A stretch of DNA of 64,000 bases, taken from assembly GCA_000004985.1 (NCBI GenBank), contig GG738858.1; one strand, given 5' to 3'. The notes beneath the pieces are model-generated. The model did no database searches. It was not told the DNA's origin and saw nothing but the letters and a program-made list of their open reading frames with translations. This stretch comes from Naegleria gruberi (lineage: Eukaryota). The translations under genes were made by a program, and so were the position numbers. Within the stretch, counting starts at the first letter, position 1. Each line of letters begins with the position of its first letter. Shown here piece by piece: positions 1-54,113 of this stretch.

Positions 1-405
1 ATTGCCAATTGGGTTATTGGTGTTATTGTTGCTGGTAAGTTGTTATCTTTACATTGATCTAATATCATACTCCTTTTTCATCTTTTCATACTAATCATCA
101 TCATCTATTTAGCTGTTATTATCACCATTTTGTGTGCTGTTGCTGCTGTATTAATTCCAATCTTGATTTGTTGTGGTGTTCTCAGTTGCACAGTTTGTTG
201 TGGAGCCGCAGCAGGTGCAGCAGCTGGATCAGCTGGATCATCAGGAACCTATCAACAAATTCATCACAATCATACCAATCATGTTCATCATTCTATTTCT
301 CAACCAATTGCTCAACAACCAACTACTTATTATTCTGGTCAACAACCACCACAACAACAACAATACTATCCACAACCAACTTCTGCTAATTATCAAAAGG
401 TTTAA
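1..405 (+). CDS. Small single-pass membrane protein, 5' partial. Exons 1..34 and 113..405; intron 35..112 (gtaagt..tttag, phase 1). Hydrophobic TM segment, Cys-rich juxtamembrane (CCGVLSCTVCCG), His- and Gln/Pro/Tyr-rich tail.
   Basis: Frame 1 of the window start is open into a GTAAGT donor at position 35. An acceptor AG at 111-112 restores the frame of the 130..405 ORF (IANWVIGVIVA|AVIITILCAVAAVLIPILICCGV...). The stop is TAA at 403-405. No homolog recognised. Confidence 0.45.
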
Positions 406-10200: not shown

Positions 10201-12732
10201 ACAAGAGATTTGTCTTTGAATCAAATTGAAACTACAGCAACAACACTCAATTCTGCTGCTGACCAAGATACTAAATCCCTAAGAGAAAAACTTTCAGAAA
10301 TTCTTATAGCCAAACTTAATGGTCAATCTTCTTCGACAAGTCAAGCTATTTTGAGTATTTCTCAAAAACCTTCAGATATCACTGCTAAAACTTCTCAACT
10401 CCTTGTTTCTGGTGTTACAACTTTGGGAGGTAATCTCAGATCAATTTATGCAGCAGGTGGTGAAGCAGATAAAATAGCTAGTGCCTTGACTGGTTCATTG
10501 TCAAACATTGTTGACAACAAGAATATTACTACAAATGAAACCAATAAGGATATTACCAATTCTTTGGCTTCTATCTCAAGAGAACTTGCCAAGATTTTAC
10601 TTCCATCCCAAACCTTGTCAATCAGCTCTAATAATTTCAATATCCTTGTTTTTGGATCTTCCTCTACAAAATCCAGTAATTATACTATTGAAGGATCATC
10701 AATTGGTACTCCTGACAACTTTGATGAATATCTTTCTGGTGCCACTTCATCACTTAACTCTGCCTCTAAGGCCTATGGTGTTGAACTTGTCTACTACAAA
10801 TCTTCATTGTTTGAATCAGTTGGAAAAGCCTCTAACAGTACAAGATCTAGTAATATTTTATCATTTGTTGTTAGTGCCTCCACATCATTTGGTAGTGAAA
10901 GTAGATCGACAGTTTCTATCAAGGGATTGACGAAACCTTTGGTGTTTACATTTACTGTAGCTAATGGTTCTACAAATGGATTCGAATGTAAATTTATTGA
11001 CGAAATTAATAATTATTGGAGTACAGATGGTTGTTCCTCTTTGATCCTCAATGACAACACTGTACAATGTTCATGCAATCACGCAACTAAATTCTCTACA
11101 TTCAGATTATTTACTCAAGTTGTATCCCAAGAAGAATATCTTGGAAGTACTGGTATTAGAATTGTCAATGTTATTTTTGGTGCTATTTATTTCTGTCTAG
11201 CTGCTTTGGTGTTCATTGCTTTGATTATTCTCAGAAACATCAATCCTGTAAGATCAAGATACATTGGTCCTTACATTGGTTTGATTGCAATTATGGTTGA
11301 CTCATTGATCATTTCATTCATCCAAAATATTGTAGTTTTATCTTTGGATAAGGGTATATCCAATTCAACTGCCGATATTGCCAATATTAGAAGAATCAGC
11401 GACGGTTTTAACTATTTCAATGTAATCCTTGTCATTCCTCTTTACTTGACCGCTTTCTTCACTTTCTTGGTCCAAATTGTTAGATACTTTATCAAGAGAC
11501 ACATGTATGAATTCATGTCAAATAAGGTTCTTTTCAATGCTCAAATTTATAGAGCTATTACTTCCAAGATTGCCTTTTGGGTTACCTTGCTTTCTTCTTT
11601 GGCAATAATTATGGCTTATTACACCATTTGGGTTGGTTTGGGAGGAGGAAATGTTTTCGTTGTTAGTACAAACACTGCTCAACAAGATAAGGAAAGAATG
11701 ACATTTACATATATTACTTCCCTTTCCTACTTTGGTCTTGCATGGATAATTGCTATCTGTATGGTTGTTATTGCAGCTTGGGATCTTTTCTACATGAATC
11801 GCCATTTATTCACTTCATGTTGTTATTCTCAAGAAGATTTGTTGAAGAAATCCTCTAGCAATCTTAATCAAACTAGAAATAGAGTTGAAAAACTTCTCAA
11901 TATGTTATCTAGAACAAAGAAACAAAAAGTTCAACTTGGAAAGTCTGCATGGTTGACTGTCCCTCAAGTTTACTACTTTACCGATGACAATTTATATTTC
12001 AGATTGGAAATTCACGTCTTTATTACAGCCTTTGTTTTCCTCACCATCAACTATCTTGCTGGTATTGCTGATATTTCAGTAATTTCAGTTGGATTAACCA
12101 ATGCTGGATCCCGTTTGGCTCCTCAAATTGTTTCCCTAATTGCTGGTATTCTCTACACATTCTGTTTGATTGCTGCTTTTGGTGGTGTGATTGTTGTCTC
12201 TTACCTTACTGAAAGACGTAGAAAGCAGTACCATAAGGATGTAGCTCCTCAATCAAAGATGGATGAAGATGAATTGAACATTGTATTGAGTGATAGATTT
12301 GGTAAACCATTGTTTGTTGAATTCTGTCAAAAAGAATTCTCACTTGAAGTAAGTTTTGGAAATTTTAATTTTATTAACACATTTAAATAGAATGTTTATT
12401 TCTATGATGCAATTACTGATTTCCTTAGAAGTGCTGATTCTAAATCAGATGCAGATGTTAAGAATTCCATTTCTGACATGTTTGAAAAGTATATCAAGAC
12501 TGGTTCTGAATATGAAGTCAACTTGCCTAGCGCCTCAAAGAAGGCCTTTATCACAACACACGAGTGTTCACAACCATCCTCCAAGATGGTTAAGGATATG
12601 TTGGACAATGTAATGATTTCAGTCATGTACAATTTGAAGGATACTTACAGTAGATTCTCAATGACTGAAGAATACAAGCTCTACCAACAAAGTAGAGACA
12701 ACATCAGTATGTTGGAAAACAACTTCTTGTAA
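7204..12732 (+). CDS. Adhesion-GPCR-like receptor with a C-terminal RGS domain, about 1.83 kaa. Exons 7204..12348 and 12391..12732; 42-nt intron 12349..12390 (GTAAGT..AAATAG, phase 0).
   Basis: N-terminal signal anchor. RCC1-like repeats (YVWGNNTNGQLGNS, IYGIGSNEKGQLGRS). Three EGF-like Cys patterns (CGGNGICADTDYCICSSGFIGQFC, CSNRGSCIGVDNCQCASPFTGNQC). GPS motif WSTDGCSSLILNDNTVQCSCNHATKFSTF immediately before 7 predicted TM helices. The RGS box starts in exon 1 (FVEFCQKEFSLE) and continues in exon 2 (NVYFYDAITDFL...EYEVNLPSASKKAF...KDTYSRFSMTEEYKLY). The unspliced read-through hits TAG at 12388. Confidence 0.75.
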
Positions 12733-12914
12733 ACAAGCAATTAAGAGTTAATAAATCTAAATTTCATTCAATAAATGTTAAGCAATGAAATTGTGACTAA
12801 CAATCTAACACACTCGAAATTTGGCGCCTAAATTTTCCGTTTTTTAAATTTGAAAACAAAACGTTAACATAAGTTTCCCGCCAATCATCTTTAAACAAAA
12901 CAACAATCAAAAAA

Positions 12915-18865: not shown

Positions 18866-19006
18866 TTCTTTTATTCAAAAATAATTTAACCCATGTAAAC
18901 AATTTGAATTCATTATTGGTGGATATTGTTTGAGAAGATTTGAAATCTAGTTCATTATTTGGAGGTAATTTTAAGGATTCAACATTTCCTAGTTTTACAA
19001 TAAAAA

Positions 19007-22446: not shown

Positions 22447-22709
22447 TTTATTTCACTTTACAATTTCAAATTTGATCTTATTGTTATCTGATTGTTGTTG
22501 GAATATCCCACCAATGGACATTGAGAGTGATAACAAGTCAATCACGACTTTCTCTCAGCGCAAGGAAAGAACAGTACTTATGGTAGGTACCTTCATATTA
22601 CTGTGTGACAAATATCAACATTTACAGAGTTGTTCCAAACTCTTTGGACTAGCATTGCCAAAATCCGACCACCTTTCCAGTTTGACATTTAACAAACACA
22701 AAAAAAATT

Positions 22710-25174
22710 ATGAAGAAACTCTTTTCCCGTACACCTAGCTTTCGTCCAAAATTTTCCAGTAGAATTGATAGCCATGAACAAACTGATGCTCTTGTAGGAG
22801 ATGTTTATCCTGGTCCTCATACAACTAATGGTCAATCATCAATAGTTAATAGTGCACCACTTAGTTCAACTAGTACTAATTCTCTTAACTCCACCACAAT
22901 CAAATATATGTTATTTGGTGGAGAACTTGATGATTCAGATCCAAACAAATTACCACAATTTATTCTTGATACCATTGATTTCCTTCTCAAATATGGTCTA
23001 GAAGTTGAGGGTATCTTTAGAGTTTCAACTCATGAGACTAGAAAAGCCGATTTGATCAACAAGATGAATGATCGATATGCTAAAGAGAAGGATCCACACA
23101 AGAATTGTACATTTACATATAATGGTACAAATAGTGATGAAGTTTATTTTGCCTCTGCTGTTTTAAAACATTACTTTAGAAGTTTACCAACTCCACTCAT
23201 CAAACCACAATTTTATGAAACTTTCATGTTGACAACTAAATGTAGAGATCAGGAAAGAAAAGACATGTTAAAGAATGCTGTCAGATTGTTACCTGTTAAT
23301 TATTTTACTTTATTGAAAAAGATTTCAGACCTTTGTTTTGAAATTTCAAAACACAGCTCATCAAATAAGATGACATGCGAAAATTTATCCGTCTGTTGGA
23401 CTCCTAATTTATTAATGTATGTTATTCATATTATTCATTTATTATTCATTTAGTGATTCAATATGATCTCAATAATTGTAAATGAATTGATCATTCATGG
23501 ATCAATAACTCTCTTCAAATTGTTAAATCAAATAGTAATAATAATATGGATTTTATGGAACAAATGAAGAGAACAGGTGATGCTCAAAATGTAATTGCAG
23601 CTCTTTTCAGAGATTGTAAACAAATCTTTGAAGACGAAGAAGAGGTACCTGTTAGAAATGTAGAAAGAAAACGATCAGCAGCTCAAACTAAGAAATTCTT
23701 TTTGGGACTCACTTCACAAACTTCTCAAGAAGGAATGGCAGTTTACAATGGAGAAAAGAATGAAAATGGAGAGAAACATGGTCGTGGTATTTTAATGTTA
23801 CCAAATGGTTCAGTATTTGAAGGTGAATTTAGAAATAACAGTTATGCAAATGGTAAATTGGTTTATGTTACAGGTGAACAATACGAAGGAAAGTTTATTG
23901 ATGATTTGCCAGATGATGATAATGGTGTTTTCCGTTTTGCAAACATGTCAGTTTACACTGGTCAAGTAAAGAAAGGCCAATTGACTGGAGTTGGTGAATT
24001 GAAATACAAAGATGGTGGTATTTACAAAGGATCATTTGTAAATGGAAAGAGAGAAGGAAAAGGAAGTTTTGAATTTTATGAAGGAAATCAAAAAGTTAGA
24101 CATTACGATGGTGATTGGGAAAATGATTCAATGAGTGGTCAAGGTACCCTAATTAACACAACTATTCAACAAGTTTATACTGGTCAATTTAAGAATAATG
24201 TTTATCACGGACAAGGTGTTTTAATTTCTGGTTTAGAACAAAATAGATGTGAAGGTGAATTTGAGAATGGTGTTGTAAAGAATGGTTCTGGAAGTTTCAC
24301 TTCACTGAATAATGAATTTATTCAATTTGAAGGATCATGGAAGAATTGTCAATTCACAGGTAAAATTAAGATTTTCAATTTCCAAACCAGATCATTAGAA
24401 TTTGAAGGTGATATGATTGACTCTAGAAAGAATGGTTTCGGTAAATTAGTTTATTCAGATGGATCATATTATGAAGGTCAATTTAATAATGATGAAATGA
24501 CTGGTACAGGTTCATTTGTTGATTCTGATAGAGTTTACAATGGTCAATTCGTTAAAAGTTTATTCCATGGTAAAGGAAAGTTAAAGGCAACTTTCAAATC
24601 TAAGGATTATGTTTTTGAAGGAGAATTTAGAGAACACCAACCATATAATGGTGTTGGTTCAGTTGTTGTGAGTAGAAAAACTGGAGATTATTGGGATGGT
24701 GAATTTAAGAATGGAAAGTTTAGTGGAAAGGGTCGTCTCACATTTGAAGATGCTTCTGTTTATGAAGGTAATGTTAAAAATTCACTTTGTGAAGGAAAGG
24801 GTGTTGTCACCTATCCAGATGGATCAATTTATTCTGGATCATTCTCAAATGATGAAAGACATGGTCCTGGAACACTCACTATTAAGGATGGAGATGAGAA
24901 GGATTTCATGATTGTCTCAATTAATCAAGTTTGGGATCATGGTGTTTTAGTTTCACAAGAAGAACCTCAATCACCTGCTACATTGGATGAGAAGGAATCT
25001 CTAATCTTTTCATTCCTTGACTCATTAGAGAAGGAAGAACCTCTGAGATTTGGACCACTTGTTGGTAAAGAACAACGACCTTACATCTCAACTGCCTTAA
25101 CAAAAGCAAAGGAAAATCCAAATACTTCAATCTTGTATGAAATTCTCTATCAACTCTCAAAATGCAGGCGTTAA
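22710..25174 (+). CDS. RhoGAP domain protein fused to MORN repeats. Proposed exons 22710..23416 and 23536..25174, with a 119-nt intron 23417..23535 (GTATGT..AATAG, phase 2). Alternative model: two separate genes, 22710..23453 and 23546..25174.
   Basis: RhoGAP motifs GIFRVS (Arg finger), LKHYFRSLPTPL, NKMTCENLSVCWTPNLL. The spliced product continues in frame into TGDAQNVIAALFRDCKQIF, which matches the last RhoGAP helix. This is followed by more than 12 MORN-like repeats (YEGxFxNGKxHGxG). Confidence 0.6.
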
Positions 25175-27789: not shown

Positions 27790-29105
27790 ATGAAGAGAGT
27801 CTTATTGGTAGCTACCATTTTGGCTGTTCTCGCTGTTTCTGTCTTTGCCAAGACAATCACAGTCTCACTCAACAAGAAGGTTTTGGATCATTCTGATTCC
27901 AATGCTGTTGCTTGGTTCAACAATATCCGTATTGCTCAAATGACCAAGGTTGGTGCTGTTCCTAACAGACCATACTTGAAGACTGGTGCTTCTCCAGTTG
28001 TTCCATTGAACGATTTCTCTGATACTCAAGTATGTATTTTCATCAAGTATTGTTCTCTATAATTCCGTTATTTTTCCTGTTATTATTTTGTGTTAAAATT
28101 GATTTTTGGTGATCGATGTTAATTTATATTTGATTTGATGATGACAATTAATAACAGTACTATGGTTTTGTCAGTCTTGGTACTCCACAACAAAATTTCA
28201 AGGTTATTTTCGATACTGGTTCTTCCAACGTTTGGGTTCCATCTGAAAGTTGTTGGTCTATCACTTGTTTGTTGCACAACAGATACGATCACACCAAGTC
28301 CTCAACTTATGTTGCCAATGGTCAAAAGTTCAACATTACCTATGGTAGTGGTGGTGTTAACGGATTCTTATCTCAAGATGCTCTCTCTTGTGGTGGTATT
28401 CCAGTTAAGGGACAAGTTTTCGGTGAAGTTATGAGTGAACAAGGATTGGCTTTCTTGTTCGGTAAGTCTGACGGTATTGTTGGTATGGCTTTCCCATCTA
28501 TTTCTGTTGATGGTGTTACTCCAATGTTCAACAATATGATGAATCAAAAGTTGGTTGACAAGAATTTGTTCTCATTCTACTTGTCAAAGACTTCTGGTAG
28601 TACTGCAAGTGCTATGATTTTGGGTGGTATTGATACTAAGTATTATACTGGTCCATTGACCTATGTTCCATTGGCCAATAGAACTTATTGGGCTATTAGA
28701 ATCAACGATGTTGGTGTTGGTGGTGACTACAAGGGTGTCTGTCCTCCAGGTGGTTGTCTTGCTGCTGTTGATACTGGTACTTCCCTCATTGCTGGTCCAG
28801 CTTTGAAGATTGGTCCTATTATTGAATCTTTGAACATTGCTAAGGATTGTTCCAACATTGATTCTAATCCTGATGTTACTTTCAAGATTGGTGGTGTTGA
28901 ATATACTTTGAAGCCAAGAGACTATGTCTTGAAGATGACTCAATTCGGTCAATCTGAATGTATTGCCGGATTCATGCCATTGGCTTTGCCACCTCAATTT
29001 GGTGACTTCTGGATTCTTGGTGACGTTTTCATTTCCACTTATTACACTGTTTTTGACTATGATGGAAGCCGTGTTGGTTTCGCCAAGGCCAATCAAAACT
29101 TGTAA
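27790..29105 (+). CDS. Cathepsin D-like lysosomal aspartic protease (pepsin family A1), 395 aa. Exons 27790..28029 and 28158..29105; intron 28030..28157 (GTATGT..AACAG, phase 0).
   Basis: Signal peptide, then propeptide ending VVPLNDFSDTQ|YYGFVSLGTPQQNFKVIFDTGSSNVWVPS (first catalytic DTGS). Second catalytic site AAVDTGTSLIAGP. C-terminal GDVFISTYYTVFDYDGSRVGFAKA. Strong preferred-codon bias (ggt/gtt/aag/ttc). Confidence 0.9.
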
Positions 29106-29268: not shown

Positions 29269-30652
29269 ATGTGGAAAGGTTGGAATGATCTTGTGGGCAC
29301 AGTGACTGGTGGAAATCATCACACCTCTACGGAAAATAGTGAAGAAAGTGAGGCATCAAATGAAGCAACAAATAATTCCTCCTCCGTACCATCATCAGAA
29401 TATTACACCAAAGATGATTTTGAATTGATCAATAATAAGGAAGATGCAGAAATACATTTAGTTATTTTAATTGCAGGAATGGGTGCTAGAAAGGGACATT
29501 ACCTTTCCGATTCACTTCTTGTTCCTTTTGGTAAATGGTTTGATATTAACAAGTGTCAACAAGCAATGAAAGAAGAAGTTTCCAATTGTTTCAAATCTTA
29601 TGCAAATGATCAGGTTAAAAAGAGATCTCCTCATATTTTGATTCGATCAATTGATTATTGTTCAACTGTTAGAGAAGAAGGAGGTTATAATGAAAAATTG
29701 AATCTTATTTCAATGAAATCAGGTGTTCAATTCCTTCGTTTAATTGCCAATGAATCAATGATTGATGTTTTAATGTATAATAGTGAAAAAATCAAACAAC
29801 AAATGCAAACTGTAAGTGTCAGGAATTGTTGAAAATTATATTGATGAATTACATTACAGACTGCTGTCAAACAAATTAATGAAATATTTGAGGAATTTAA
29901 GGATGTTCCAATCAAATCAGTTTCATTTGTTGGACATTCACTTGGTTCTGTTCTTGCCTTTGATATTCTTTATCAACATCAAGAATCTGGAAATACTCTT
30001 TTAAAGATGAATCCTAATAGATGCTTTTTAGTTGGAAGTCCACTTGGTTTGTTTTTGACAATGTCAGTTCAAACAACCAACCAATATTTAGAAGCATTCC
30101 ATTGTGTTAATCCTCAAACAAATAAGAAACAATTATTGAAGGAAATTGATGTTTATCACTTGTACCATCCTTATGACCCTGTTGCTTATAGATTGGATCC
30201 TCATTTAGATTCTAGATTTGGAAAACATGATCCTCATAGCTGTATGTTGTTATTTCACATTCTGATTTGTTAATTATTCAATAGTGGAGTATTTTGCTAG
30301 AAGATTTAATCCAAATCATTATGTCAATCAATTCAATAACTATGTAAGTAACACTTTAAAATAGATTATTCGAAACAATTTTCATTAGAAAGCTAAGATA
30401 TTTGGAAATCAAGAAAAGATTGATGAAGAATTAAGTGAACTCCTTAAACAATATGAAATGTATGTTAATTTTGAGAATAATTTATCTAACTTTCTTTATA
30501 GTATTGATTATTGCCTTCCAGTAAACTCTGAGCTTGTTATTAATGAGTATTTGAGTGCTGGTGATGTACATTTGAAATATTGGAACAATACTGAAGTTAT
30601 TTGTTTCATTTTAGAGAAAATGAATTTGATTTCTGCCAACAAATCTGAATAA
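29269..30652 (+). CDS. DDHD-domain phospholipase A1-like protein (PA-PLA1/SEC23IP family). Four exons: 29269..29811, 29860..30244, 30288..30346, 30392..30652. Introns of 48, 43 and 45 nt.
   Basis: Lipase serine motif FVGHSLGSVLAFDIL in exon 2. DDHD-domain end IDYCLPVNSELVINEYLSAGDVHLKYW in exon 4. Donors GTAAGT/GTATGT/GTAAGT with acceptors ACAG/ATAG/TTAG, and phases are consistent. Confidence 0.65.
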
Positions 30653-30704: not shown

Positions 30705-32358
30705 CTACTTTTTTGATCGTTTTTCTGACATTACTCCCAATCTATAACCAAGAAGTAAAAGTAAAAAGTGTTCATCAGCTTTGATGTTATTCTTTGCATC
30801 AATAAAGAGCTGACGAATTTCATCATCTGTTCTACACATTTCAGCGAGCATTGAAGAGTAATGTTGAAGGGAACTATTAGTAAATGAGATACATTGCTCA
30901 TTTTGATTTTGAGGAGGTGGTGGAGGTGGTGGATTATTAGTTAAATTAGTTGTGGTTGGATGGGAGGTAGATTCTGAAAGGAATGAAGATTTGGAATTAA
31001 CATTAAAACCAAACGAAGATGGTAAATTTTGTGTTCTTTCTTCTTTTTCTGCGAACACTGGAAGGTGATTACTTGTCGGTTCATCTCCTCCCAAATTCGA
31101 AAGTGATGGAAGTACTAAAAATCCTGATTGACTATTATCAAAAAGAAAAGATCCTCCACTGTTGGTATTATCCAAAAAACTCTTTTTCAAAAATGAAAAA
31201 TTACTATTACTGGCATCGTTATTCATTCCATGATCTAACAGGGACGATTCATGCTCCTTTTCCACATGAGAATTATGCAACTCATAAATTGAAGGTATCG
31301 AATTTGAGTGGGCATTTGAGTGAAAATTCCAATTATTAAAACCTATTGAATTACTTCTCGAACTACAACTTTGTTCCATTGAATTACTATTGGATTGTTG
31401 TGTATGATGTTTAACTTCATTGAGGTTGTTGAGGTTATTGTTATTGAGATTTTCACTTATTACCTCAACGTTCTTAACACTAACGGTTTCAGGTGTTTCT
31501 TCCTTAACAGGAGAAGTTTCAATATTAGATGTAGTGCTCTTCTTCTTTTTCTTTCCAGTTTTCTGAGTTGTTTCTTGAGGTGTTGGTTCTGTTACCTCTT
31601 TTGTTTCTTTTATTTCTGGTGTTTCTTTTGGAGGAGGCAACAGTTCATCTCCTTTTTTAATTTGTAATCTGTACTTTTGAAGGTGACTCTTAATATGATC
31701 AGTCTGTTAGAAAAATTGATTTGTTAAATTGTTAAATTAACTCTTTTGAAATACATACCGTTACACGAGAAACACCCATTAAATTCTTGATTGCTTTAGG
31801 GGCAGCATTATCAAGTCCCAACACAGAAACAGCTTCCACAAATGATTGATGTAATTCATTGGTCCATGATAATCTTTGTTTTTTGTTTTTAGCCTGAAGA
31901 TCTTCAGAATCACCCGATGAAACAGAAGGAGAAACTGTTGCTTCAACTGTTCTCTTTTTCTTATCATCGGATGATGATAATTGATCATAAGAGGAGTTGG
32001 GTAGTGATTTTGATTTTCTCTTTGTTTTAGATTCCTTCTTATTTGACTTTGTAGAGTTATTGTTATTTATATTATTACTCACAATACTATTGGTACTAGT
32101 GCTTGTTTGTTGTTGTTGTTGTTGAAGGCTACTGGAAGAGGAGGTAGTACTCATTGATGACGAGGCTCCTCCATATGAATCAGAGTTATTATTATTCATC
32201 ATATTCATATTATTATTATTATTATTATTGAGTACATTATTAGTAGCTACCACTCCTACAACTCCTTGGTGATGCTGATGATGAGCTGACTGATGTTGGT
32301 GCTGCACTTGTTGTGAGGAGATTGTTTGTTGCGGAACAAGCAGAGGTGGTTTTTGCAT
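30705..32358 (-). CDS. Myb-like SHAQKYF/GARP-class DNA-binding protein with Gln/Asn/Ser-rich flanks. Exons 32358..31759 and 31703..30705 (minus strand); 55-nt intron 31704..31758.
   Basis: Myb repeat RLSWTNELHQSFVEAVSVLGLDNAAPKAIKNLMGVSRVT, joined across GTATGT..AACAG to TDHIKSHLQKYRLQIKK (the SHLQKYR signature). The upstream frame is closed by TGA; 32358 is the first ATG. Confidence 0.65.
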
Positions 32359-32686
32359 TTTTTGTTCTAATTTGTACAACAAGCTTCATGCTAAAGCTTT
32401 GGGAATGAAGACTGAACATATATTGGTGAAAGAGGTCATTGATCAAACAAATACGTTACGTTAAGTCACTACACACGATGTCTATTGACTTTGTATTGGT
32501 AGTGAGCTTTTTATTCGGAGAGGTTACTCCTTTTGAGAAGAAAGAGCTTATTGGAGTGATTGTGGCAGGGAAATAACTTGAAGGATTGTAGTATTTTAAC
32601 AAGGGTGAAAATTATTTGATATTCCAATATAGTTCTGTAAGGACTATGGAGATAACGGTTTATAAAAATTTTTAGAATCGCAATAC

Positions 32687-34598
32687 TTACTTTTGGTTGA
32701 GAATAAAGGTCCTAAAAGGATGAATTTGAGAATCTGTAGTATTGGAAGAAGGAAAATCCACACTCTGTTGTTCAAACCTATCAGGATTGAATTGATTTGA
32801 TTGTTTTCCCCAAACTCTAATATCTGAATTCAATAAATTAAAAAGAATGAGAAGTTTTGAACTCTTTGGAATATTGTAATGACTTCTACTAGTATTTGGA
32901 AGAGGTTTTCCACTTCCAACTCTACAACTTTCCAAAGCTTCACCTGCATATGTAAATACTGGTGCTGCCAACCTGAATGTTTCTTGCACAACTCTGTTGC
33001 AATATTTAAATTTGTATTTAAAAGTTCTGAATAGGACAGTCTTGTCCTCTCTTTGAGAGAAATTCTCGTCAACTTCTTGTTGGACTAATTGTTGATACTC
33101 AGGATTTAGAGATAAGTAATGAAGAGCTCGTGTCACATATAATAAAACATGTTCTTGTCCGTCACAAAATGCTCTACTATTAGCTGGCAGTTGTAATTTA
33201 CAAATGGATGGGATTGGAAGAGGTAGATTAATAGTTGATTCTTTCTTGTTTTTAGATGATCTCTTGAACATGGGTAATAGTGTTCTCTTAGGTTGAAGTA
33301 GTGAAATACTCCTACTAAGGCAGGATTTCAATAATTTCATTAAAATATTCTTTTGTTGATTGGATGATTCAAAACTAGTCAAATTCGATGTGGGACTGAT
33401 TTTTGTGGAATTATCTGGGGACTCTGGCTTGCATACTGCCTCTGTAATATTAGAAAGCAATGAAGAGAGGTAATCATCAATATTAACGGACACAAATTTT
33501 TGTGAATGTCTTTGTTCTTCGAGAACAAGACTCTCCATGCTCGATGTTACCTCTTCATTGAATAACTCCATCCAGGATGTAGTAAGTTGAGTTAAATTTT
33601 CATTCAAAATTTTCTCAAAGTTGTTTGGATCCAAAGTATTTAAAATATCTTCTTCATCCAATGATTCTAATCCATTATGAAATTTGGTAGAGATTAGATT
33701 CATATTAGTGACATGCCTATCCCTACAGTCACTAAAATTATGTTTGAGTTTTGGATTATTAACAATCTCAAAATATGTATTGGAATCACTATTGCGCTTG
33801 TTAATAAAATTGTGCTGAAATATTAACATACCTAGTTATTAAATAATTATCAAGAAATAAACTAAGTCTCCACATACTACAACCAAACATTTGAGATTTC
33901 AATATTTGATATTTTGGAAAGAGGAACACATTGTCCAATTTTTGTTGATAGTCCCAAGCAAATTTACAATTCTTGCAGGGATAATATCCCACACAATCAT
34001 TCAGCAATTTTGTCATCCAAATCTTGCACCAATAACAAGAGCAAGATTGATAACTTGGATCTTCCATTGAAAGGAATGTAGCCATATTATTTTGTCTTCT
34101 TTTGTACTTATTTTGCAAGCTGTTAAGAAAAGAAGTAGAACTCATAGCTCGTGTTAAACTTGGCTTATTGGCATCATTATTGTAGATAACAACACCTTCA
34201 TCAGGATTAAATTGATAACTATGTTTTTGATATTTAAAAAGAGGTGAATCATCTTCTTCGTTACTACTTGTACTACTACTATCAGATGATGAGGTCGGAG
34301 ATGATGGATGGTAATTATTTGGTTGAACATTTGCAGGATCATAATTTTGGGAAGGAATATTATTGGGAGTTGGAGGTATTTGATTATTACTAGCATCTTC
34401 GTTATGATACAAATCAATATTGGAAATATTTGAAAAATAGGGCCTGTTGAAAAATCGTAAGGTAAAATAGTGGAAATGTGAATAGCCTGGCAGATGCGTA
34501 GCTTTACTAATAGTTCTCACATGTTTTCCATAAATATAAACAATTATAAGAGCCAATATGTTCAATAGAACAAAACAGGCTGCAACAAAAACCAACAT
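32687..34598 (-). CDS. Cytochrome P450-like protein with an N-terminal membrane anchor. Exons 34598..33878 and 33831..32687; 46-nt intron 33832..33877 (phase 1). The heme-binding Cys loop was not identifiable.
   Basis: N-terminal anchor MLVFVAACFVLLNILALIIVYIYG. J/K-helix region LSLNPEYQQLVQQEVD. ExxR motif VVQETFRL. PERF motif FNPDRF. After IHPF the expected FGxGxRxCxG is replaced by RTFILNQK and then a stop. The splice (GTATGT..AACTAG) joins ...SQMFGC|S|MLIFQHNF. Confidence 0.55.
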
Positions 34599-38132: not shown

Positions 38133-38830
38133 ATGAGTATTCTCGAATATAATGGAGCCGGTATTGTCGCCATGACTGGCAAGAATTGTGTGGCCATCGC
38201 TGCCGATACAAGATATGGTATTCGTCAACAAACTGTAGGAACTGATATGCAAAAGATTTTCAAGATTCACGATAAATTGTTTATTGGATTGAACGGATTG
38301 GCTACTGATGTTCAAACTGTTAATGAAAAACTGAAATTTAGAATGAACATGTACAATCTTAAGGAAGAAAGAGACATCAAACCAAGTAGTTTTGCCAATC
38401 TCATGTCTAATATTCTCTATGAAAAGAGGTATGTAATTTTCCCGATCAAAATATTCTTACAATCTCATCGTCATCATATTGATAACAATAATACTATTAA
38501 TACAATAGATTTGGACCTTGGTTTATTGAACCAGTTATTGCAGGACTTGAAGGACCAGAAAATAAGCCATTTATTTGCGCTCAAGATTTGATCGGAGCTC
38601 CTTGTTTTACTGATAACTTTGTTGTTTCTGGTACTTGTAGTGAAGCTTTATACGGAATGTGTGAATCTTTGTATAAACCAGATATGGAACCAGAAGATCT
38701 CTTTGAAGTTATTTCACAATGTCTTTTGGCTGCTGTTGATAGAGATTGTATTTCTGGTTGGGGTGCTGTTGTTCATGTAATCACTCCAGATAGTATCACA
38801 ACCAAGAGACTGAAGGTCAGACAAGATTAA
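38133..38830 (+). CDS. PSMB3: Proteasome subunit beta type-3 (PSMB3/Pup3). Exons 38133..38428 and 38509..38830; 80-nt intron (GTATGT..AATAG, phase 2).
   Basis: Near-collinear with PSMB3: [30 protein letters not shown]...GLATDVQTV...LYEKR|[13 protein letters not shown]...[48 protein letters not shown]...[15 protein letters not shown]. Confidence 0.9.
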
Positions 38831-38987: not shown

Positions 38988-41037
38988 ATGCTCAAACCAA
39001 CATCCCTATCGTTGGTATTAATGGTTATTTTGGCCATCCTTTCGGTTTTTGTTGGAGCAGACGAAGTTACACATAAAGTATGTTCTCCTGATTATAGTAA
39101 ATTTATACTGAATAACAAAAATAATAATTTAAAACTTTGTAATGATTAACTGTCGTTAGTATGAAGTTGGAGATAATGTTGTTTTGTGGGCAAATCACGT
39201 AGGACCACATTACAATCCTTTGGAAACATATCCTTATTATGAATCACATGTTCCTGTCTGTAAACCAAATGATCCTACACATGGAGATTTTAAATTGGAA
39301 TATAAATCACTTTCTCTCGGAGAAGCTTTACAAGGACAAGATCTTGTTAAAGTTTACGGAATTGAAACAATTTTCAGAAGTATGTTTTAATTAATATTGT
39401 ATTGTGTTCGAACAAGTGTTTAGAGAATACACCAATCACTCGTTTATGTAAATTGCCAATCACTAAGAAGGAAATTGATCAATATATTTATGCAATTGAT
39501 AATCAATATTGGTATCAATATTACTTGGATGGTATGTAATTTTTAATCATCATAATATTAAATAATAATAATTCAAGATCTTCCAATGTGGGCCATGATT
39601 GGAGGTTACGCCTTGTCAAAGAAGGGAGATACTGTAGAAAAAGTACCTTTTGTTTATACACATCAAATCTTTAATTTGGAATGGAATGAGGATCGTATTG
39701 TTAGTGTAAATTTAACTTCTAGTAGAAGAAAGCCTCTTTTGGATAACACACAAGAAATTACTTTCACTTACGAAGTTAATTGGAATAATAATCCTAATAT
39801 TAATTTTGAGAAACGTTTTGATCTCTACCTTGAACTCAACTTTTTCCAACACAAGATTCACTGGTTCTCAATCATTAATAGTTTCATGATGGTTTTATTC
39901 TTGAGTGCTGTAGTTTTTATGATTTTAATCAGAACTCTCTACAAAGATCTAGCTGCTCTTGAAAAACATGCCAAATCTAAAACTGGTGGAGATATGGAAA
40001 TTGGAACAGAAAATGATAGTGAGTTTGATATTATTGGAAGTGGAGACTCTTCTGATAGTGGTCCTTGGAAAATGTTACATGGTGATGTATTCCGTAAGCC
40101 AGCAAACCTTACATTATTCTGTGCAATTCTTGGTACTGGTCTTCAATTATTATTCTTGGCATTTTATTTGATTCTTCTCTCTATTATCAATACTTGGTAT
40201 GATACTCGTGGAGCTTTGTTGAGAGCTTTCATTTTCACATACTGTATTACAAGCTTTGTTGGTGGTTATTTCAGTGGACATTTCTACCTCAAATGGAAGG
40301 GAACTGGAGATAGATGGATTAGAACAGCTCTCTGGACAGCTTGTATTTTCCCATTCACTGTATTTATTACATCCATATTATTGAATTTCTTGGCTATTTC
40401 ATATAATGCTTTGATTGCCATGCCATTCACTACCATGCTTACTGTTTTTGTTATGTGGTTGTTCATTACTCTTCCACTAACATTTATTGGTACAATCTTT
40501 GGCAGAAACTTCCCTTCAAAGAATGTTGGTAAATCAAGTCAATTCCCATGCCAAGTCAATCAATTCCCAAGACCAATTCCAACTAAGCCATGGTATTTCA
40601 GAACATTTAGCATGTTTATTTTTGCTGGTATTTTACCATTCGGAAGTATCTTTATTGAACTCTATTTCGTATTTACTTCATTCTGGAATTACAAGTTTTA
40701 CTATGTTTATGGATTCCTTTTATTGGTATTTGCAATTCTAGTTGTAGTTATTGGTTGTGTTTCAGTTGTTACAACATTCTTCCTTTTGAATAGTGAAGAT
40801 TGGAGATGGGTGTGGCACTCAATGATTGTTGGTTTCAGTACTTCATTCTACATTTTCCTCTACTCAATTTACTTCTTTAATACCAAGACAAGAATGAGAG
40901 GCTTCTTCCAGATAGTTTTCTACTATGGTATTACGTTCATGTTTTGTGTGGGTATGGCATTCCTGTGTGGTGCTATTGCCTTCTCTGCCACCTATGTCTT
41001 TGTTAAACGAATTTACAAGGACATTAAAGTTGATTAA
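38988..41037 (+). CDS. TM9SF: Transmembrane 9 superfamily (nonaspanin/TM9SF) protein. Exons 38988..39077, 39160..39379, 39424..39531, 39578..41037.
   Basis: Signal peptide exon MLKPTSLSLVLMVILAILSVFVGADEVTHK. YEVGDNVVLWANHVGPHYNPLETYPYY...VPVCKP. AIDNQYWYQYYLDDLPMWAMIGG. Nine C-terminal TM helices ending IYKDIKVD. All donors are GTATGT. Confidence 0.85.
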
Positions 41038-43205: not shown

Positions 43206-45320
43206 ACTTGAGGTTGAGTTTCTGTTTCTTGATTATTTTCTTCAAGTGTTCCAATAGGATTTTGAGTTTCTTCTTTAGTTTCAATTTTATCGCTAAGCAC
43301 AGCTTCAATCATCTTTGCTGATGTTGGCTCACTAATATCAACAGTTGTAGGAACAGATTTTTCTGTGTCTTTTGCAGAAACTTCTGCCTTGTCTTTGCTT
43401 TCTTTGAGTCTTTTTTGTTCTGCTTTCTTTGCCAAAATAGTTGGAGAAGTTTCTTTGAGGAGGAAAATGTACATAATGATACCTATTAAGGTAAATCCAG
43501 CAAAAATAAACCAAGGAACTGCTTGACTTGTTACAGATACAACTGGAATAAAGAATAAGGAAAGTACAATAGTTGTAACCCACATTGTCAAAGTACTCAA
43601 ACCAGTTCCATAAAGGATTACTTTCTCATTCTCTCCATTGAATACTTCGTGAGCTAGAATATAACACAAAGAGCCAATACCAATATTGAATCCTAAAAGG
43701 AATATACAAATAAAAATGATTGCTAAAATGATCTTGTAATCTGTTCCATTCTCAGAAAATTGAAAAATGAATCCTCCAGCAATATCTGCCAAGAAACAAA
43801 TAGTCATCTAAAAGGGTTAAAATTGAACTCAAAACACGAAACTTACACCAACAAGAGTAAGAGTTTTTCTTCCTAACCTATCAACAAGGAAAATGTTTGG
43901 AAAGACAGTTAAAACCTGCCACATTGAAATACCAAATGATGTGAGTAGTTGATCAAGAGCATCAGTGAGACCTGCACTTTGCATTAAACTTGGGGTGAAA
44001 CTAGTTGCTGATTGAATACCAGTCCATTCCAAAGCCATCATACCATAACAACCAAGTATTAATGGAATAATGACCTTTGAACAGAATAATCTCTTCATAG
44101 CAGCAATGGCTGACATTTGCTCCTGCTTAACTTCTGCAGAGGTATTTGGATCCTTTTCTTTGTTTTCCTTAATTTCCCCAGCATTTGTTGATTGCCTCTT
44201 TTCCTCTAATTCAATATTGTTGGATGTTGATGGAGTGGTTTCCTTACTATCATTATCTTTTAAGAATTGTGGAGACTCTGGAACGATAAACAATATAAGG
44301 AAGAACAATGGAACGCTCCACAAGTTATGGAATGCATGAACAGCTCTCCACATATCAGCAAAACGAACAAAAATTGCAGCAAATGCATAACCCAATGCAA
44401 TTCCTGCAGCCACACCAAGGTTATACATGGAGCCACACAATCCTTGATACTTTGAGTATGGCAACAATTCTGCCACATACATTGAGCAAACAACAGTAGA
44501 AATTCCAGCACCTGCACCAAGGAAACAACGAAACACAATAAGGGATGCATAAGTATAAGAAGCACTTGCTCCAATAGATCCCAACATTGAAATTAGACAA
44601 CAAATAAGCATGCTTGCCTTCCTTCCCAAAAGAGATCCTGTAAACATTGAAAACAAACAACCTGCAAGACCACCAATGAAAATACTACTGGCAAACAAAC
44701 CTTGCAATAAGGTTGTTCCTAAATCTGAAGAGGTACTACTTGTAGATGAAGTGTTATTTTGTTCATTGGTCATAAATAAGGAAAGGGTGTTGGCTTGTTG
44801 AGTTCTGATTTTGAATTTGGTGCACCCACTATTCTGTTGGTTGTTCTTACTGATGACGAGCGAAGAGTGCAACAGGTTCATCAAACTCTTCATATTAAAA
44901 AGTGTCGCCAACAGTTCTTCATGATTTTGATCATTCCAAATGTTTTGTTTCGATGTGGATGATTGTTGAGAAAGTGAACGTTGGGAATCTTCTTCTGATA
45001 ATGAATGAAGCAAATGGTCATCATAGTTATAATTATTACTGATATCTACAACTATTGGTAAATCTAGAACAAATCGATCTACAAAGGATGATCGAAGGCT
45101 GGAGAAGAAGGAAGAAAAACCATTAATATTTACATTATCATAACTGGTAGAACGGATTAAAGTACCATTGGATGAGGAGGATGAATTGTTGGATGAGAAG
45201 AAGGCAGTGGTGGCACTTGAAAGACCACCTCCGATGGTTCCTAAAGCGTAACCAAATACTAAACCACCAAGAATATTGACCAGTACAAGAATAATTGCAA
45301 GAGGAATAGGTTTGGATTTG
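43202..45320 (-). CDS. Major facilitator superfamily sugar-porter-like transporter. Exons about 45320..43847 and 43807..43202, with a 39-nt intron 43808..43846 (GTAAGT..TTTTAG). The N-terminal start is unresolved (no in-frame ATG before TM1; a further 5' exon is likely).
   Basis: TM1 with GGLVFGYALGTIGG (cf. GGxLFGYDxGVISG). Loop motifs GRK, PESPQFL, VDRLGRK. 12-TM hydropathy. Splice joins ...TLTLVG|MTICFLADIAGG. Confidence 0.65.
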
Positions 45321-52279: not shown

Positions 52280-54113
52280 TTATTTTGAGGATATTTGGAT
52301 TGTGATCTCCTGTCCAGTATTGACATTATTAGTTAATAGTAATTCTACATAATTCTGATGGGATTGTTGGAGAATATTCATTGAATTGCTTGGATATAAT
52401 TTAATGGAAAATCCATTCGGATAATAATATTCTCTATTCAGATAGATAACTGTTGTTTCACTTCGACAATTTTCACTAACTTTGAATGAAAATTTGAAAT
52501 CACTCGAGAGAGGATCGAATTTCATATAGGTTGGATCTCCACAAACAATTGGTACATAAGTTCTACTCAGAGCTTTGACTTTTCTTGTTTGTAATTGTCC
52601 ATTCGCTCCATAAAAACTTTCAATAGTTGGAGGTGAAGCAGCAGTTGTCATATCATTATAATACTTGAATTGCCAATAGGTCCATGATCTCAAATATTGA
52701 TCTGCTAAACTTGTCATCCAATCCAATTCGTACTCACTTTGAGTGAAATTGCTTAAAGCTCCAAATTCAGTCATGAATGCTCCAGTCTATTGTTAAGATT
52801 GTTTCAATGTACTATATATCAAAAGTGTTCTTACCTTTAATCGTTTTACATCTGATTCCTTTGCCACAACAGTGACATCATCATCAATCCTGCATGTAAA
52901 TCTACTCTTTGGGTCTCCAGTTGAGTTGACATCTCCACAATAGATATGATAAGAGTAAACTTGTTTCTCTAAATCTTGAGTGCCAAGAGGAGATTCTTCA
53001 AATCCAGATGAAAGTAGATCAGTAACAGTAGGTTCTATACCAGTTCCAAAACTTAAAGTTACTTATAACACTTACCAAAGAAAACTAAATGATTCGAATT
53101 CACTGAACGAATAGCAGAATATACTTGTTGATAAAGTGGAATTAAATTCTGACGGTCTGCCTTCCCTCTCTGATCCAAAAGTAGTGACAAATCCTCATAA
53201 ATATCACCTGGCCATGGCTCATTAATAATTCTATTCAGCCATTTAATTTCACACATCATCAATTTACAACAATAGATACTCGTTAATGAATTATTGAACA
53301 ACATATGAAACTCACTCAAGTCCTAAAACATTTTCCTCATCCTTAAAATAATTTGCAGCAACTTTCCAAAAATTTACAAATGAATCCCTTAAACCATTTA
53401 CATTATTATAAAAGTTTTGGAATGCATTTGAGGCACCCTGAGTCAAATAATAGATAAAGAATGGTTCTTTCAAACAATCTTGAATAATTGGAGCACCAGT
53501 TGTTTGATTAATTCTCAAATGAATACTTTCGAATGGAAATGGAAAAGGTTGAGGTGATTTATATTGAACAGCCCATCTAGGAAACCCCTCTCCACAAAAC
53601 AGATCACTCATCACATCTTGATGAACATCCAGAATAATCATGATATCATACTGTTGTGCATTTCTAATAATTTCCTTTAGTTTCGAAAGATATTTGTAAT
53701 CATATTGATTTCTAATAGGTTCTGTTCCTTGCCATGAAAGCATCAATCTAATCACATTAAATCCCCAATCCTTTAAATTCTGAAAATCAACATTAGTCAA
53801 TGAAGTATTCGAATTGTAATTATACAAATCAGGATAAAAAGGATAAACCTTGTAAACTGCATTCACACTATTTTCCATATGATCAATTTTTCTGATAAAT
53901 CCATTGATTAACATACCCATGGAATATTCTTGTCCTATTCAATCCATCAATAAATTGTTGATTGACCTTGTTAACTTGAACGAAACCATTCGCATTCACA
54001 ACCATGCAATCAATCATCATGACAAGTGTCATCATGAACAGAAGAACCGTTTGATTCTTCAATATTAGTTGCGACATTTTTTGAATGAAATCCCACAACT
54101 CTTTGCCATTCAT
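52280..54113 (-). CDS. Glycoside hydrolase family 5 enzyme (cellulase/endoglycoceramidase-like), about 536 aa, 5 exons: 54113..53917, 53867..53316, 53230..53076, 53034..52835, 52786..52280. Introns of 49, 85, 41 and 48 nt.
   Basis: Signal peptide. RIFHG|VNAVYKVYPFYPD. GFNVIRLMLSW. Acid/base Glu in LGLE|IINEPWPGD. SYHIY. Nucleophile Glu in TGAFMTEFGA. Donors are GTATGT/GTGAGT/GTAAGT/GTAAGA and the phases are consistent throughout. Confidence 0.7.

What the first reader, a model, noticed from the sequence alone, without database searches (positions are those of the whole stretch)
12349..12390. Two-size intron population: ultra-short 38-49 nt introns plus a 78-128 nt class, with an almost invariant GTATGT/GTAAGT donor
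Tiny-class introns modelled by hand: 42 (GPCR-RGS), 48/43/45 (DDHD), 46 (P450), 39 (MFS), 49/41/48 (GH5), 38 (Rab) and 49 (USP) nt. Longer class: 55 (Myb), 78 (first gene), 80 (PSMB3), 85 (GH5), 98 (Rab), 119 (RhoGAP-MORN) and 128 (cathepsin D) nt. The donor is GTATGT or GTAAGT in nearly every case; one is GTAGGT, one GTGAGT and one GTAAGA. Most genes here have no introns at all. The tiny class reads across stop codons in every case, so it cannot be ignored when calling genes in this genome.
Basis: seen in the sequence. Interest (0 to 1): 0.5.

Follow-up and report, generated by a model that had tools for sequence, protein, structure and literature searches.

The report
Ordinary short introns of Naegleria gruberi
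The flagged 42-base segment is a genuine, ordinary spliceosomal intron in the already sequenced and annotated amoeba Naegleria gruberi, one of 23 mostly very short introns in this window, and the suggested split into two size classes is not established by this sample.

Summary
The window is Naegleria gruberi NEG-M (exact protein matches). The focal segment 12349-12390 is a real 42-nt GT-AG intron. The N. fowleri orthologue has no intron there and aligns without a gap across the splice junction, and the RGS domain is only detectable after splicing.

Two (119 nt, 78 nt) are only moderately supported. One is misplaced: the P450 '46-nt intron' is coding sequence, and the true intron is the adjacent 43-nt segment.

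The donor description is correct: 20 of 23 are GTAAGT or GTATGT.

Two size classes are not shown. Fifteen introns are 38-49 nt, one is 55 nt, and seven are 78-128 nt. Tests for two modes are inconclusive at n=23. Orthologous introns in N. lovaniensis and N. fowleri have uncorrelated, mostly longer lengths.

The best reading is the familiar peak at a minimal intron length with a tail. Six genes carrying 15 of these introns already match the public annotation exactly. This is already known and of low interest.

The parts
12349..12390 (+). Focal intron, 42 nt, GTAAGT..ATAG, phase 0, in the adhesion-GPCR/RGS gene (7204-12733)
   Evidence: No intron in the N. fowleri orthologue, which aligns without a gap. 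The RGS Pfam domain is complete only after splicing.
35..112 (+). Intron, 78 nt, GTAAGT, phase 1, in the first gene, which is cut by the window start
   Evidence: Splicing gives a continuous transmembrane helix and ORF. There is a TACTAAT-like branch motif 18 nt from the 3' end. Moderate support only.
23417..23535 (+). Intron, 119 nt, GTATGT, phase 2, joining the RhoGAP and MORN exons
   Evidence: The frames are compatible. The RhoGAP profile extends across the junction. The same RhoGAP-then-MORN architecture is seen in a transcript-derived protein, P0150. Moderate support; the public model is partial.
28030..28157 (+). Intron, 128 nt, GTATGT, phase 0, cathepsin D-like aspartic protease
   Evidence: Gap-free alignment to solved cathepsin D across DTQ|YYG.
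29812..29859 (+). DDHD intron 1, 48 nt, GTAAGT
   Evidence: The spliced protein is identical to XP_002679259.1. Homologues align without a gap.
30242..30284 (+). DDHD intron 2, 43 nt, GTATGT
30344..30388 (+). DDHD intron 3, 45 nt, GTAAGT
30460..30501 (+).
   Evidence: Removed in XP_002679259.1. All four homologues lack the 14 residues it would encode.
31704..31758 (-). Myb/GARP-type gene intron, 55 nt, GTATGT
   Evidence: The Myb domain is complete (profile 1-46/46, 34.6 bits) only after splicing.
33789..33831 (-). True first intron of the P450-like gene, 43 nt, GTATGT..AATAG, phase 2
   Evidence: The Willaertia orthologue matches this model and has a 44-nt intron at the same position and phase.
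33832..33877 (-).
   Evidence: It encodes MWRLSLFLDNYLIT, which is identical in the Willaertia protein P0153.
32644..32690 (-).
   Evidence: Gap-free alignment LNQ|NPYRTILEYQ to Willaertia, which has a 51-nt intron at the same site.
38429..38508 (+). PSMB3 intron, 80 nt, GTATGT
   Evidence: The spliced protein is identical to XP_002679261.1. An 88%-identical Logan contig lacks exactly these 80 nt. Same position in N. lovaniensis (77 nt) and N. fowleri (101 nt).
39078..39159 (+).
   Evidence: The spliced protein is identical to XP_002679262.1. The position is conserved in N. lovaniensis (76 nt) and N. fowleri (95 nt).
39380..39423 (+). EMP70 paralogue intron 2, 44 nt, GTATGT
   Evidence: 105 nt in N. 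lovaniensis, 117 nt in N. fowleri.
39532..39577 (+). EMP70 paralogue intron 3, 46 nt, GTATGT, AAG acceptor
   Evidence: 68 nt in N. lovaniensis, 61 nt in N. fowleri.
43808..43846 (-). MFS sugar-transporter intron, 39 nt, GTAAGT
   Evidence: N. lovaniensis and N. fowleri have no intron here and align without a gap. Willaertia has a 48-nt intron at the same site.
53868..53916 (-). GH5 intron 1, 49 nt, GTATGT
   Evidence: The spliced protein is identical to XP_002679377.1. Same position and phase in N. lovaniensis (135 nt) and Willaertia (111 nt).
53231..53315 (-). GH5 intron 2, 85 nt, GTGAGT
   Evidence: 176 nt in N. lovaniensis. It restores the catalytic NEP motif.
53035..53075 (-). GH5 intron 3, 41 nt, GTAAGT
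   Evidence: 219 nt in N. lovaniensis.
52787..52834 (-). GH5 intron 4, 48 nt, GTAAGA
   Evidence: 55 nt in N. lovaniensis.
56633..56670 (-). Rab intron 1, 38 nt, GTATGT, splits the P-loop GDSGV|GKT
   Evidence: The spliced protein is identical to XP_002679378.1. The Ras profile 1-118 is contiguous only after splicing.
56403..56500 (-). Rab intron 2, 98 nt, GTAAGT, before DTAGQE
58018..58066 (-). USP intron, 49 nt, GTAGGT, inside the Cys box GLEN|FGNTCY
   Evidence: The spliced protein is identical to XP_002679379.1. Same position in N. lovaniensis (52 nt) and N. fowleri (77 nt).

Best explanation
These segments are ordinary major-type (U2-dependent, GT-AG) spliceosomal introns of Naegleria gruberi strain NEG-M. 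That genome was published in 2010, and its public gene models already contain most of these introns.

Anatomy shown here:
- The 5' splice site is GTA(A/T)GT.
- The interior is very AT-rich (about 76% A+T, only 10% C) and has no polypyrimidine tract.
- A TAAC-type, branch-like motif is enriched in the last 30 nt.
- The 3' end is (A)TAG.

Inferred mechanism (no step observed here):
- Recognition is by intron definition.
- U1 and U6 pair with the strong, almost invariant donor.
- U2 pairs with the (T)TAAC branch site a few to about 27 nt upstream of the AG.
- The first downstream AG is used.

The cluster at 38-49 nt is the 'minimal intron' peak seen in many compact eukaryotic genomes. Lengths pile up just above the shortest spacing the spliceosome tolerates, and a right-hand tail (55-128 nt here) holds introns that have not shrunk to that floor. 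The tail is not a separate class.

Intron length is evolutionarily labile. The same intron positions carry quite different lengths in N. lovaniensis, N. fowleri and Willaertia, and some introns are absent from those species.
For: Identity of the genome:
- Exact matches of window ORFs and spliced models to N. gruberi NEG-M proteins.

Reality of the introns:
- Six spliced gene models carrying 15 introns are identical to public proteins.
- Orthologues with no intron at the RGS and MFS sites align without a gap.
- Intron positions and phases are conserved in orthologues, while flanking exons stay conserved and intron sequence and length diverge.
- Protein motifs are restored only after splicing.
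- An 88%-identical contig lacks exactly the 80-nt PSMB3 intron.

Splice signals:
- Donor and acceptor position counts, and TAAC present in the last 30 nt of 12/23 introns against 3.65 expected (P<0.0002).

One peak with a tail rather than two classes:
- Silverman test p = 0.21 and 0.48.
- Orthologous lengths are uncorrelated (rho = -0.07), and N. gruberi is the shorter member in 12 of 14 orthologous pairs.
- The N. lovaniensis sample runs continuously from 51 to 219 nt, with 5 of 19 introns falling in the 56-77 nt range that is empty in N. gruberi.

Literature:
- N. gruberi has 1.7 exons per gene (PMC8296547).
- N. gruberi RNA-seq exists. Among annotated introns with enough coverage, 2,534 were scored as not retained and 122 as retained (PMC6142364 supplement).
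- Intron-length distributions of almost all eukaryotes decompose into one to three components (PMC6157073).
Against: - No RNA from this organism was examined here, so splicing is inferred from comparison and homology.
- In this window there really is a gap with no intron between 56 and 77 nt. Gap tests under shifted gamma or Weibull nulls give p about 0.013, and a two-component Gaussian mixture beats one component by about 16 BIC units. A genuine second component therefore cannot be excluded.
- Two introns (119 nt, 78 nt) rest on weak evidence.
- The branch points are inferred from motif enrichment, not mapped.
- My full-length model of the focal gene is not an exact match to any public protein. 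I could not show that the public annotation contains the focal intron itself.
Confidence: 0.8

Rival explanations
1. There are two genuine intron populations in N. gruberi: a minimal class of about 38-49 nt and a distinct class of about 78-128 nt. The two would be maintained by different constraints, such as different recognition modes or functional elements in the longer introns.
For: - No intron of 56-77 nt among the 23 in the window.
- Gap tests give p = 0.013-0.054, and the two-component mixture is preferred by BIC.
- Dual-modal intron-length distributions are common across eukaryotes (PMC6157073).
Against: - Silverman's test does not reject a single mode.
- n = 23 from a single 64-kb window, with ascertainment by ORF disruption.
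- Orthologous introns switch between 'classes' across species, for example 41 vs 219, 44 vs 105 and 49 vs 135 nt, and lengths are uncorrelated.
- The longer introns show no Rfam family and no sequence conservation that I could see.
- Donor and acceptor signals are the same in both groups.
Confidence: 0.18
2. The tiny segments are not removed from the RNA. The interrupted ORFs would instead reflect pseudogenes, assembly or sequencing errors, or retained sequence that truncates the proteins.
For: No RNA from this strain was examined here. The PPR gene at 17722-18874 does show frame interruptions without canonical introns.
Against: - Every segment has GT...AG ends and a strong donor, and its removal restores conserved motifs exactly.
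- Positions and phases are shared with other species and genera while lengths differ.
- Related-strain contigs differ preferentially inside the segments.
- An in-frame, stop-free 42-nt segment is absent from all homologues.
Confidence: 0.02

Closest known systems
Annotated spliceosomal introns of Naegleria gruberi NEG-M (JGI/NCBI gene models from the 2010 genome paper, Fritz-Laylin et al., Cell 2010; citation from my own knowledge, the paper is not held in the library)
   Same: This is the same genome. Six spliced gene models carrying 15 of the 23 introns reproduce the public proteins residue for residue. Intron density in the window (about 0.7 per gene) equals the published figure.
   Different: For some genes here the public models are absent, partial or different: the P450-like gene (no N. 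gruberi hit), RhoGAP-MORN (partial model P0149), and CatD, Myb and GPCR-RGS (not exact matches). I found no published description of the length distribution in the searchable library.
'Minimal intron' peak in compact eukaryotic genomes (for example S. pombe, filamentous fungi, C. elegans, Drosophila; species examples from my own knowledge, minimal introns also in PMC2856156 and PMC3060096, listed)
   Same: A sharp mode just above a hard lower length limit with a long right tail, strong splice-site signals, and recognition across the intron.
   Different: The mode here (about 45 nt) is at the short end of the range. There is no polypyrimidine tract. The branch-like TAAC motif lies unusually close to the 3' splice site in several introns, 3-13 nt away.
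Saccharomyces cerevisiae introns (GUAUGU donor, UACUAAC branch site, bimodal length distribution; from my own knowledge)
   Same: GTATGT is the commonest donor (12/23). There is a TAAC-type branch motif, few genes have introns, and the lengths look two-peaked.
   Different: GTAAGT is nearly as common (8/23). The branch motif is short and degenerate. Lengths are far shorter than the yeast peaks of about 100 and 400 nt. Bimodality is not demonstrated here.
Trichomonas/Giardia introns with a fused branch-site and 3' splice-site motif (ACTAACACACAG; from my own knowledge)
   Same: Excavate-grade protists with short introns, a GTATGT-like donor, and a branch motif close to the 3' end. Some N. gruberi introns end in CTAACAG or ATAACAG.
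   Different: There is no conserved 12-nt 3' motif. The distance from the TAAC motif to the AG varies from 3 to 27 nt within the 30-nt window that was tested, and the motif is absent from that window in about half the introns.
Ultra-short introns of ciliates and others (Paramecium about 25 nt; PMC5014332)
   Same: A narrow length distribution pressed against a minimum.
   Different: The N. gruberi minimum here is 38 nt, well above the 15-30 nt of truly ultra-short systems, and a substantial tail up to 128 nt exists.

Membership tests
Major (U2-type) GT-AG spliceosomal introns | GT at the 5' end and AG at the 3' end | tested here: met
   23 of 23.
Major (U2-type) GT-AG spliceosomal introns | 5' splice-site consensus of the GTRAGT/GTATGT type, complementary to U1/U6 | tested here: met
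   G1, T2 and G5 are invariant, A3 is 22/23 and T6 is 22/23. The pairing to the snRNAs themselves is inferred; no snRNA gene lies in the window.
Major (U2-type) GT-AG spliceosomal introns | Branch-site motif upstream of the 3' splice site | tested here: inconclusive
   TAAC is enriched in the last 30 nt (12/23 observed against 3.65 expected, P<0.0002). Eleven introns lack it there, and actual branch usage cannot be tested with these tools.
Major (U2-type) GT-AG spliceosomal introns | Precise removal restores the reading frame and conserved protein sequence | tested here: met
   Exact identity to public proteins for six genes.
Major (U2-type) GT-AG spliceosomal introns | Removal from RNA in this organism | not testable with these tools
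   RNA-seq exists (PRJEB23822; PMC6142364) but cannot be mapped here. The only indirect hint is an intron-free PSMB3 contig from a related organism.
Minor (U12-type) introns | Extended donor [AG]TATCCTT | tested here: not met
   None of the 23 donors has it.
Bimodal (two-component) intron-length distribution | Two statistically separated modes | tested here: inconclusive
   Silverman p = 0.21 (log length) and 0.48 (raw length). Interior-gap tests give p = 0.013-0.054. BIC favours two Gaussians. n = 23.
Bimodal (two-component) intron-length distribution | Class membership is a stable property of an intron across orthologues | tested here: not met
   Spearman rho = -0.07 for nine N. gruberi/N. 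lovaniensis pairs. Introns of 41, 44 and 49 nt correspond to 219, 105 and 135 nt.
Minimal-intron peak | Majority of introns within a narrow band just above a hard lower limit, with a right tail | tested here: met
   15 of 23 lie within 38-49 nt, none is shorter than 38 nt, and the tail reaches 128 nt.
Trichomonas/Giardia-type introns | Conserved fused branch-site and 3' splice-site motif (ACTAACACACAG) | tested here: not met
   The acceptor-region position counts show no such motif, and the TAAC-to-AG distance varies from 3 to 27 nt within the tested 30-nt window.

The most novel reading that the evidence does not exclude
The N. gruberi lineage has undergone genome-wide shrinkage of its introns to a floor of about 38-49 nt relative to N. 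lovaniensis and N. fowleri, leaving a discrete, functionally constrained second population of about 80-130 nt. N. gruberi is the shorter member in 12 of 14 orthologous pairs, with a median of 48 nt against 91 and 95 nt in the relatives. This is the opposite of what published mean intron lengths suggest (203 nt against 126-144 nt). Those published means would then be inflated by mis-modelled long introns, and Naegleria would offer a closely related species set for studying how minimal intron length is set.
Probability: 0.2. Interest if true: 0.35.

Novelty: already known. Interest (0 to 1): 0.15.

Why it matters
The practical point stands: gene calling in Naegleria fails unless introns of about 40 nt are modelled. 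That includes in-frame, stop-free introns that no ORF scan can see, and it means avoiding intron-like coding stretches that act as decoys. The window also shows that some public N. gruberi models are missing or partial. Biologically this is the familiar minimal-intron pattern in an annotated genome. The only mildly new hint is that N. gruberi introns are systematically shorter than their orthologues in N. lovaniensis and N. fowleri, and that rests on 14 pairs.

Tried and rejected
- Exact-sequence look-up of N. gruberi proteins in the contig index returned nothing, so the annotated neighbourhood of the window could not be fetched. I used exact protein look-ups and orthologous loci instead.
- Literature searches for a published N. 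gruberi intron-length distribution found none.
  - The per-species intron quartile table in the PMC6142364 supplement is truncated before the N. gruberi row.
  - No supplementary files are held for the fitild paper.
- Pfam scores could not discriminate the DDHD models with and without the 42-nt intron (64.7 against 64.6 bits). They also could not discriminate the two P450 models. Alignment to homologues settled both.
- No Naegleria orthologue was found for RhoGAP-MORN, so the 119-nt intron stays moderately supported.
- The candidate 75-nt intron at 19914-19988 was not counted. The surrounding region shows no convincing coding frame and no Rfam family other than the neighbouring 5S rRNA.
- The donor hexamer alone is not informative. 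GTAWGT occurs 58 times in the window against 54 +/- 7 expected by chance.
- I considered and rejected snoRNA or other RNA genes inside the longer introns (no Rfam hit) and U12-type introns (no matching donors).
- My full-length GPCR-RGS, CatD, Myb, RhoGAP-MORN and P450 models are not exact matches to any public protein. For these genes, agreement with the public annotation could not be shown.
Full report
**Where the window comes from.** The window is AT-rich (about 33% G+C) and densely packed with eukaryotic genes. Exact-sequence look-ups place it on a 782-kb scaffold of Naegleria gruberi strain NEG-M. ETF-QO, kinesin-14, an EMP70 protein, a TPR protein, TruD and others are identical to NCBI/JGI proteins of that strain. 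Published statistics for this genome are 33% G+C, 1.7 exons per gene and a mean intron length of 203 bp (PMC8296547). The contig index does not hold this genome. I therefore worked with exact protein look-ups and with orthologous loci from N. lovaniensis (L001, L003), N. fowleri (L004) and Willaertia magna (L002, L005).

**The focal intron.**
- Positions 12349-12390 read GTAAGTTTTGGAAATTTTAATTTTATTAACACATTTAAATAG (42 nt).
- Removing them joins a 1715-codon ORF to a 113-codon ORF in phase 0, giving '...FCQKEFSLE|NVYFYDAITDF...'.
- The unspliced ORF has no RGS match. The spliced C-terminus matches the RGS profile at positions 4-115 of 117 in one stretch across the junction.
- Most tellingly, the N. 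fowleri orthologue has no intron at this site. Its genomic DNA encodes 'RFGKPLFVEFCEKEFSLENIYFYDAVSE', which aligns without a gap over the N. gruberi junction.
- The boundaries are therefore right to the base.
- My full 1828-residue model is not an exact match to a public protein. I could not show that the public annotation already contains this particular intron.

  - PSMB3 (80 nt) and GH5 (49/85/41/48);
  - Rab (38/98) and USP (49, GTAGGT donor);
  - DDHD, but only when a fourth intron is also removed.
- MFS 39 nt: N. lovaniensis and N. fowleri have no intron at that site and align without a gap. Willaertia carries a 48-nt stop-containing GTAAGT insert at exactly that site.
- CatD 128 nt: solved cathepsin D structures align without a gap over DTQ|YYG.
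- Myb 55 nt: the Myb domain is complete (profile 1-46/46, 34.6 bits) only after splicing, against a sub-threshold partial match before.
- Rab: the Ras profile 1-118 is contiguous only after both introns are removed. The first intron splits the P-loop GDSGV|GKT.
- RhoGAP-MORN 119 nt has weaker support. The frames are compatible, the RhoGAP profile extends slightly across the junction, and a transcript-derived protein from another protist has the same RhoGAP-then-MORN order. No Naegleria orthologue was found, and the public model is partial.
- The first-gene 78-nt intron gives a continuous transmembrane helix in phase 1, but the upstream exon is cut by the window edge.

**One error and five omissions.**
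- In the P450-like gene two intron-like units lie back to back on the minus strand: 33877-33832 (46 nt) and 33831-33789 (43 nt). Removing either one joins the same two ORFs.
  - The Willaertia orthologue P0153 reads 'KSQMFGSSMWRLSLFLDNYLITSD', identical to the model that keeps the 46-nt unit as coding sequence and removes the 43-nt unit.
  - Willaertia has a 44-nt intron at the same position and phase.
- The same comparison reveals a second P450 intron of 47 nt (32644-32690). Its donor overlaps the apparent stop codon. Willaertia has a 51-nt intron there.
The spliced model is an exact match to XP_002679262.1. The positions are conserved in N. lovaniensis and N. fowleri, with well-conserved exon flanks and diverged intron sequence.
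It is a multiple of three with no in-frame stop, so it is invisible to an ORF scan. The public model removes it, and four homologues all lack the 14 residues it would encode.
- The corrected census is 23 introns in about 13 of 34 protein-coding genes, roughly 0.7 per gene, in line with the published density.

**Anatomy.**
- Donor: G1, T2 and G5 are invariant. A3 is 22/23. Position +4 is A 10, T 12, G 1. T6 is 22/23.
- Acceptor: AG is invariant. Position -3 is T 18, C 4, A 1. Position -4 is mostly A.
- Interior: 35% A, 41% T and only 10% C, with no polypyrimidine tract.
- TAAC occurs in the last 30 nt of 12 introns, against 3.65 expected from shuffles (P<0.0002). The putative branch adenosine lies 3-27 nt from the 3' end.
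- Lengths fall evenly into the three residue classes modulo 3 (7/8/8).
- The donor hexamer alone is not diagnostic. GTAWGT occurs 58 times in the window against 54 +/- 7 by chance, and only 20 occurrences are donors.

**Are there two size classes?**
- The lengths are 38, 39, 41, 42, 42, 43, 43, 44, 45, 46, 47, 48, 48, 49, 49, 55, 78, 80, 82, 85, 98, 119 and 128 nt.
- A two-Gaussian mixture beats one by about 16 BIC units, but any skewed distribution would do that.
- Silverman's test does not reject one mode (p = 0.21 on log length, 0.48 on raw length).
- The 55-to-78 gap has p = 0.054, 0.013 and 0.014 under shifted lognormal, gamma and Weibull nulls. The sample is too small to decide.
- Comparative data argue against stable classes.
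  - The four GH5 introns (49/85/41/48) sit at the same positions and phases as N. lovaniensis introns of 135/176/219/55 nt.
  - USP is 49 nt against 52 (N. lovaniensis) and 77 (N. fowleri). PSMB3 is 80 against 77 and 101. EMP70 is 82/44/46 against 76/105/68 and 95/117/61.
  - Across nine N. gruberi/N. lovaniensis pairs the lengths are uncorrelated (rho = -0.07). N. gruberi is the shorter member in 12 of 14 pairs.
- Small samples reconstructed from annotated genes in the fetched loci:
  - N. lovaniensis: median 91 nt, range 51-219, five of 19 in the 56-77 band;
  - N. fowleri: median 95 nt, n = 7;
  - Willaertia: median 57.5 nt, range 40-136, n = 12.

**Interpretation.**
- These are ordinary U2-type introns.
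- The tight 38-49 nt cluster is the minimal-intron peak known from many compact genomes. The 55-128 nt introns are most simply its tail.
- The mechanism is inferred from the signals, not observed: recognition across the intron, with U1/U6 on a near-invariant donor, U2 on a TAAC-type branch site close to the 3' end, and use of the next AG.
- RNA-seq for this species exists. Most tested annotated introns were scored as efficiently spliced: 2,534 not retained against 122 retained (PMC6142364).
- A general survey reports that intron-length distributions of almost all eukaryotes decompose into one to three components (PMC6157073). Even a true second component would therefore not be unusual.

**Verdict.**
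The practical conclusion, that tiny introns must be modelled, is right.
- One intron was misplaced and five were missed. The two-class interpretation is unproven and is weakened by the comparative data.
- The feature is already known in the sense that the genome and most of these gene models are public. Interest is low.
- The one lead worth a genome-wide check is the apparent systematic shortness of N. gruberi introns relative to their orthologues.

Noticed in passing
window 19006-19124 (-): A 5S ribosomal RNA gene (Rfam RF00001, 105 bits, full length) lies between protein-coding genes.
   Followed up: partly
window 33832-33877 (-): A 46-nt stretch of coding sequence mimics an intron (GTATGT...TAATAACTAG). 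It lies directly upstream of the true 43-nt intron and has the same length modulo 3. It encodes MWRLSLFLDNYLIT, which is conserved in Willaertia, and would mislead any signal-based gene caller.
   Followed up: yes
window 17722-18874 (-): A PPR-repeat gene is split over four reading-frame segments, including one in-frame stop. No GT-AG intron with a good donor joins the segments. Possible explanations are a pseudogene, sequence errors, or non-canonical introns.
   Followed up: partly
window about 45300-45420 (-): The MFS transporter ORF has no ATG upstream of its first transmembrane helix. A 96-nt in-frame segment with a non-consensus GTCATC donor, an ATAAC motif and a TTATTAG acceptor could be a further intron (sequence; the 96-nt count is my own hand count, not a tool result). 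This is unresolved.
   Followed up: partly
window 19914-19988 (-): A 75-nt segment has perfect intron signals (GTATGT...TTAAACTAACAG). It lies in a region with no convincing ORF and no Rfam family, so it may be an intron of an unannotated or non-coding transcript.
   Followed up: partly
window 32511-34598 (-) and 22710-25174 (+): The public annotation looks incomplete here. No N. gruberi protein was returned for the P450-like gene. The RhoGAP-MORN gene is represented only by a partial 357-residue MORN model with an internal in-frame deletion.
   Followed up: partly
window 32511-32760 (-): The P450-like protein has no cysteine where the haem-binding FxxGxRxCxG motif would sit. It reads 'HPFRTFILNQNPYRTILEYQ', and the same cysteine-free sequence is conserved in Willaertia. 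It may not be a working P450.
   Followed up: no
window 12349-12390 and 43808-43846; L003, L004, L002: Intron presence varies between species. N. fowleri has no intron at the RGS site. N. fowleri and N. lovaniensis have none at the MFS site, while Willaertia has one there, which suggests loss in the fowleri/lovaniensis lineage.
   Followed up: yes
window introns compared with L001, L003, L004: N. gruberi introns are shorter than their orthologues in 12 of 14 pairs (medians 48 nt against 91 and 95 nt), although the published mean intron length is larger for N. gruberi (203 against 126-144 bp). The published mean may be inflated by a few long or mis-modelled introns.
   Followed up: partly
window 22583-22627 (+): A 45-nt intron-like segment (GTAGGT...TTTACAG) joins two short ORFs just upstream of the RhoGAP start codon. 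It could be an upstream exon, a uORF or a small separate gene.
   Followed up: no
L006 (Logan ERR2815185 contig, 1039 nt): A contig 88% identical to the PSMB3 coding sequence lacks exactly the 80-nt intron and carries another ORF 42 nt upstream of the gene. It is either a transcript assembly or an intron-free gene copy in a related Naegleria.
   Followed up: partly
window 39575-39577 (+): The third EMP70 intron uses an AAG acceptor (TTCAAG|AT), whereas N. lovaniensis and N. fowleri have TAG at the same site.
   Followed up: no
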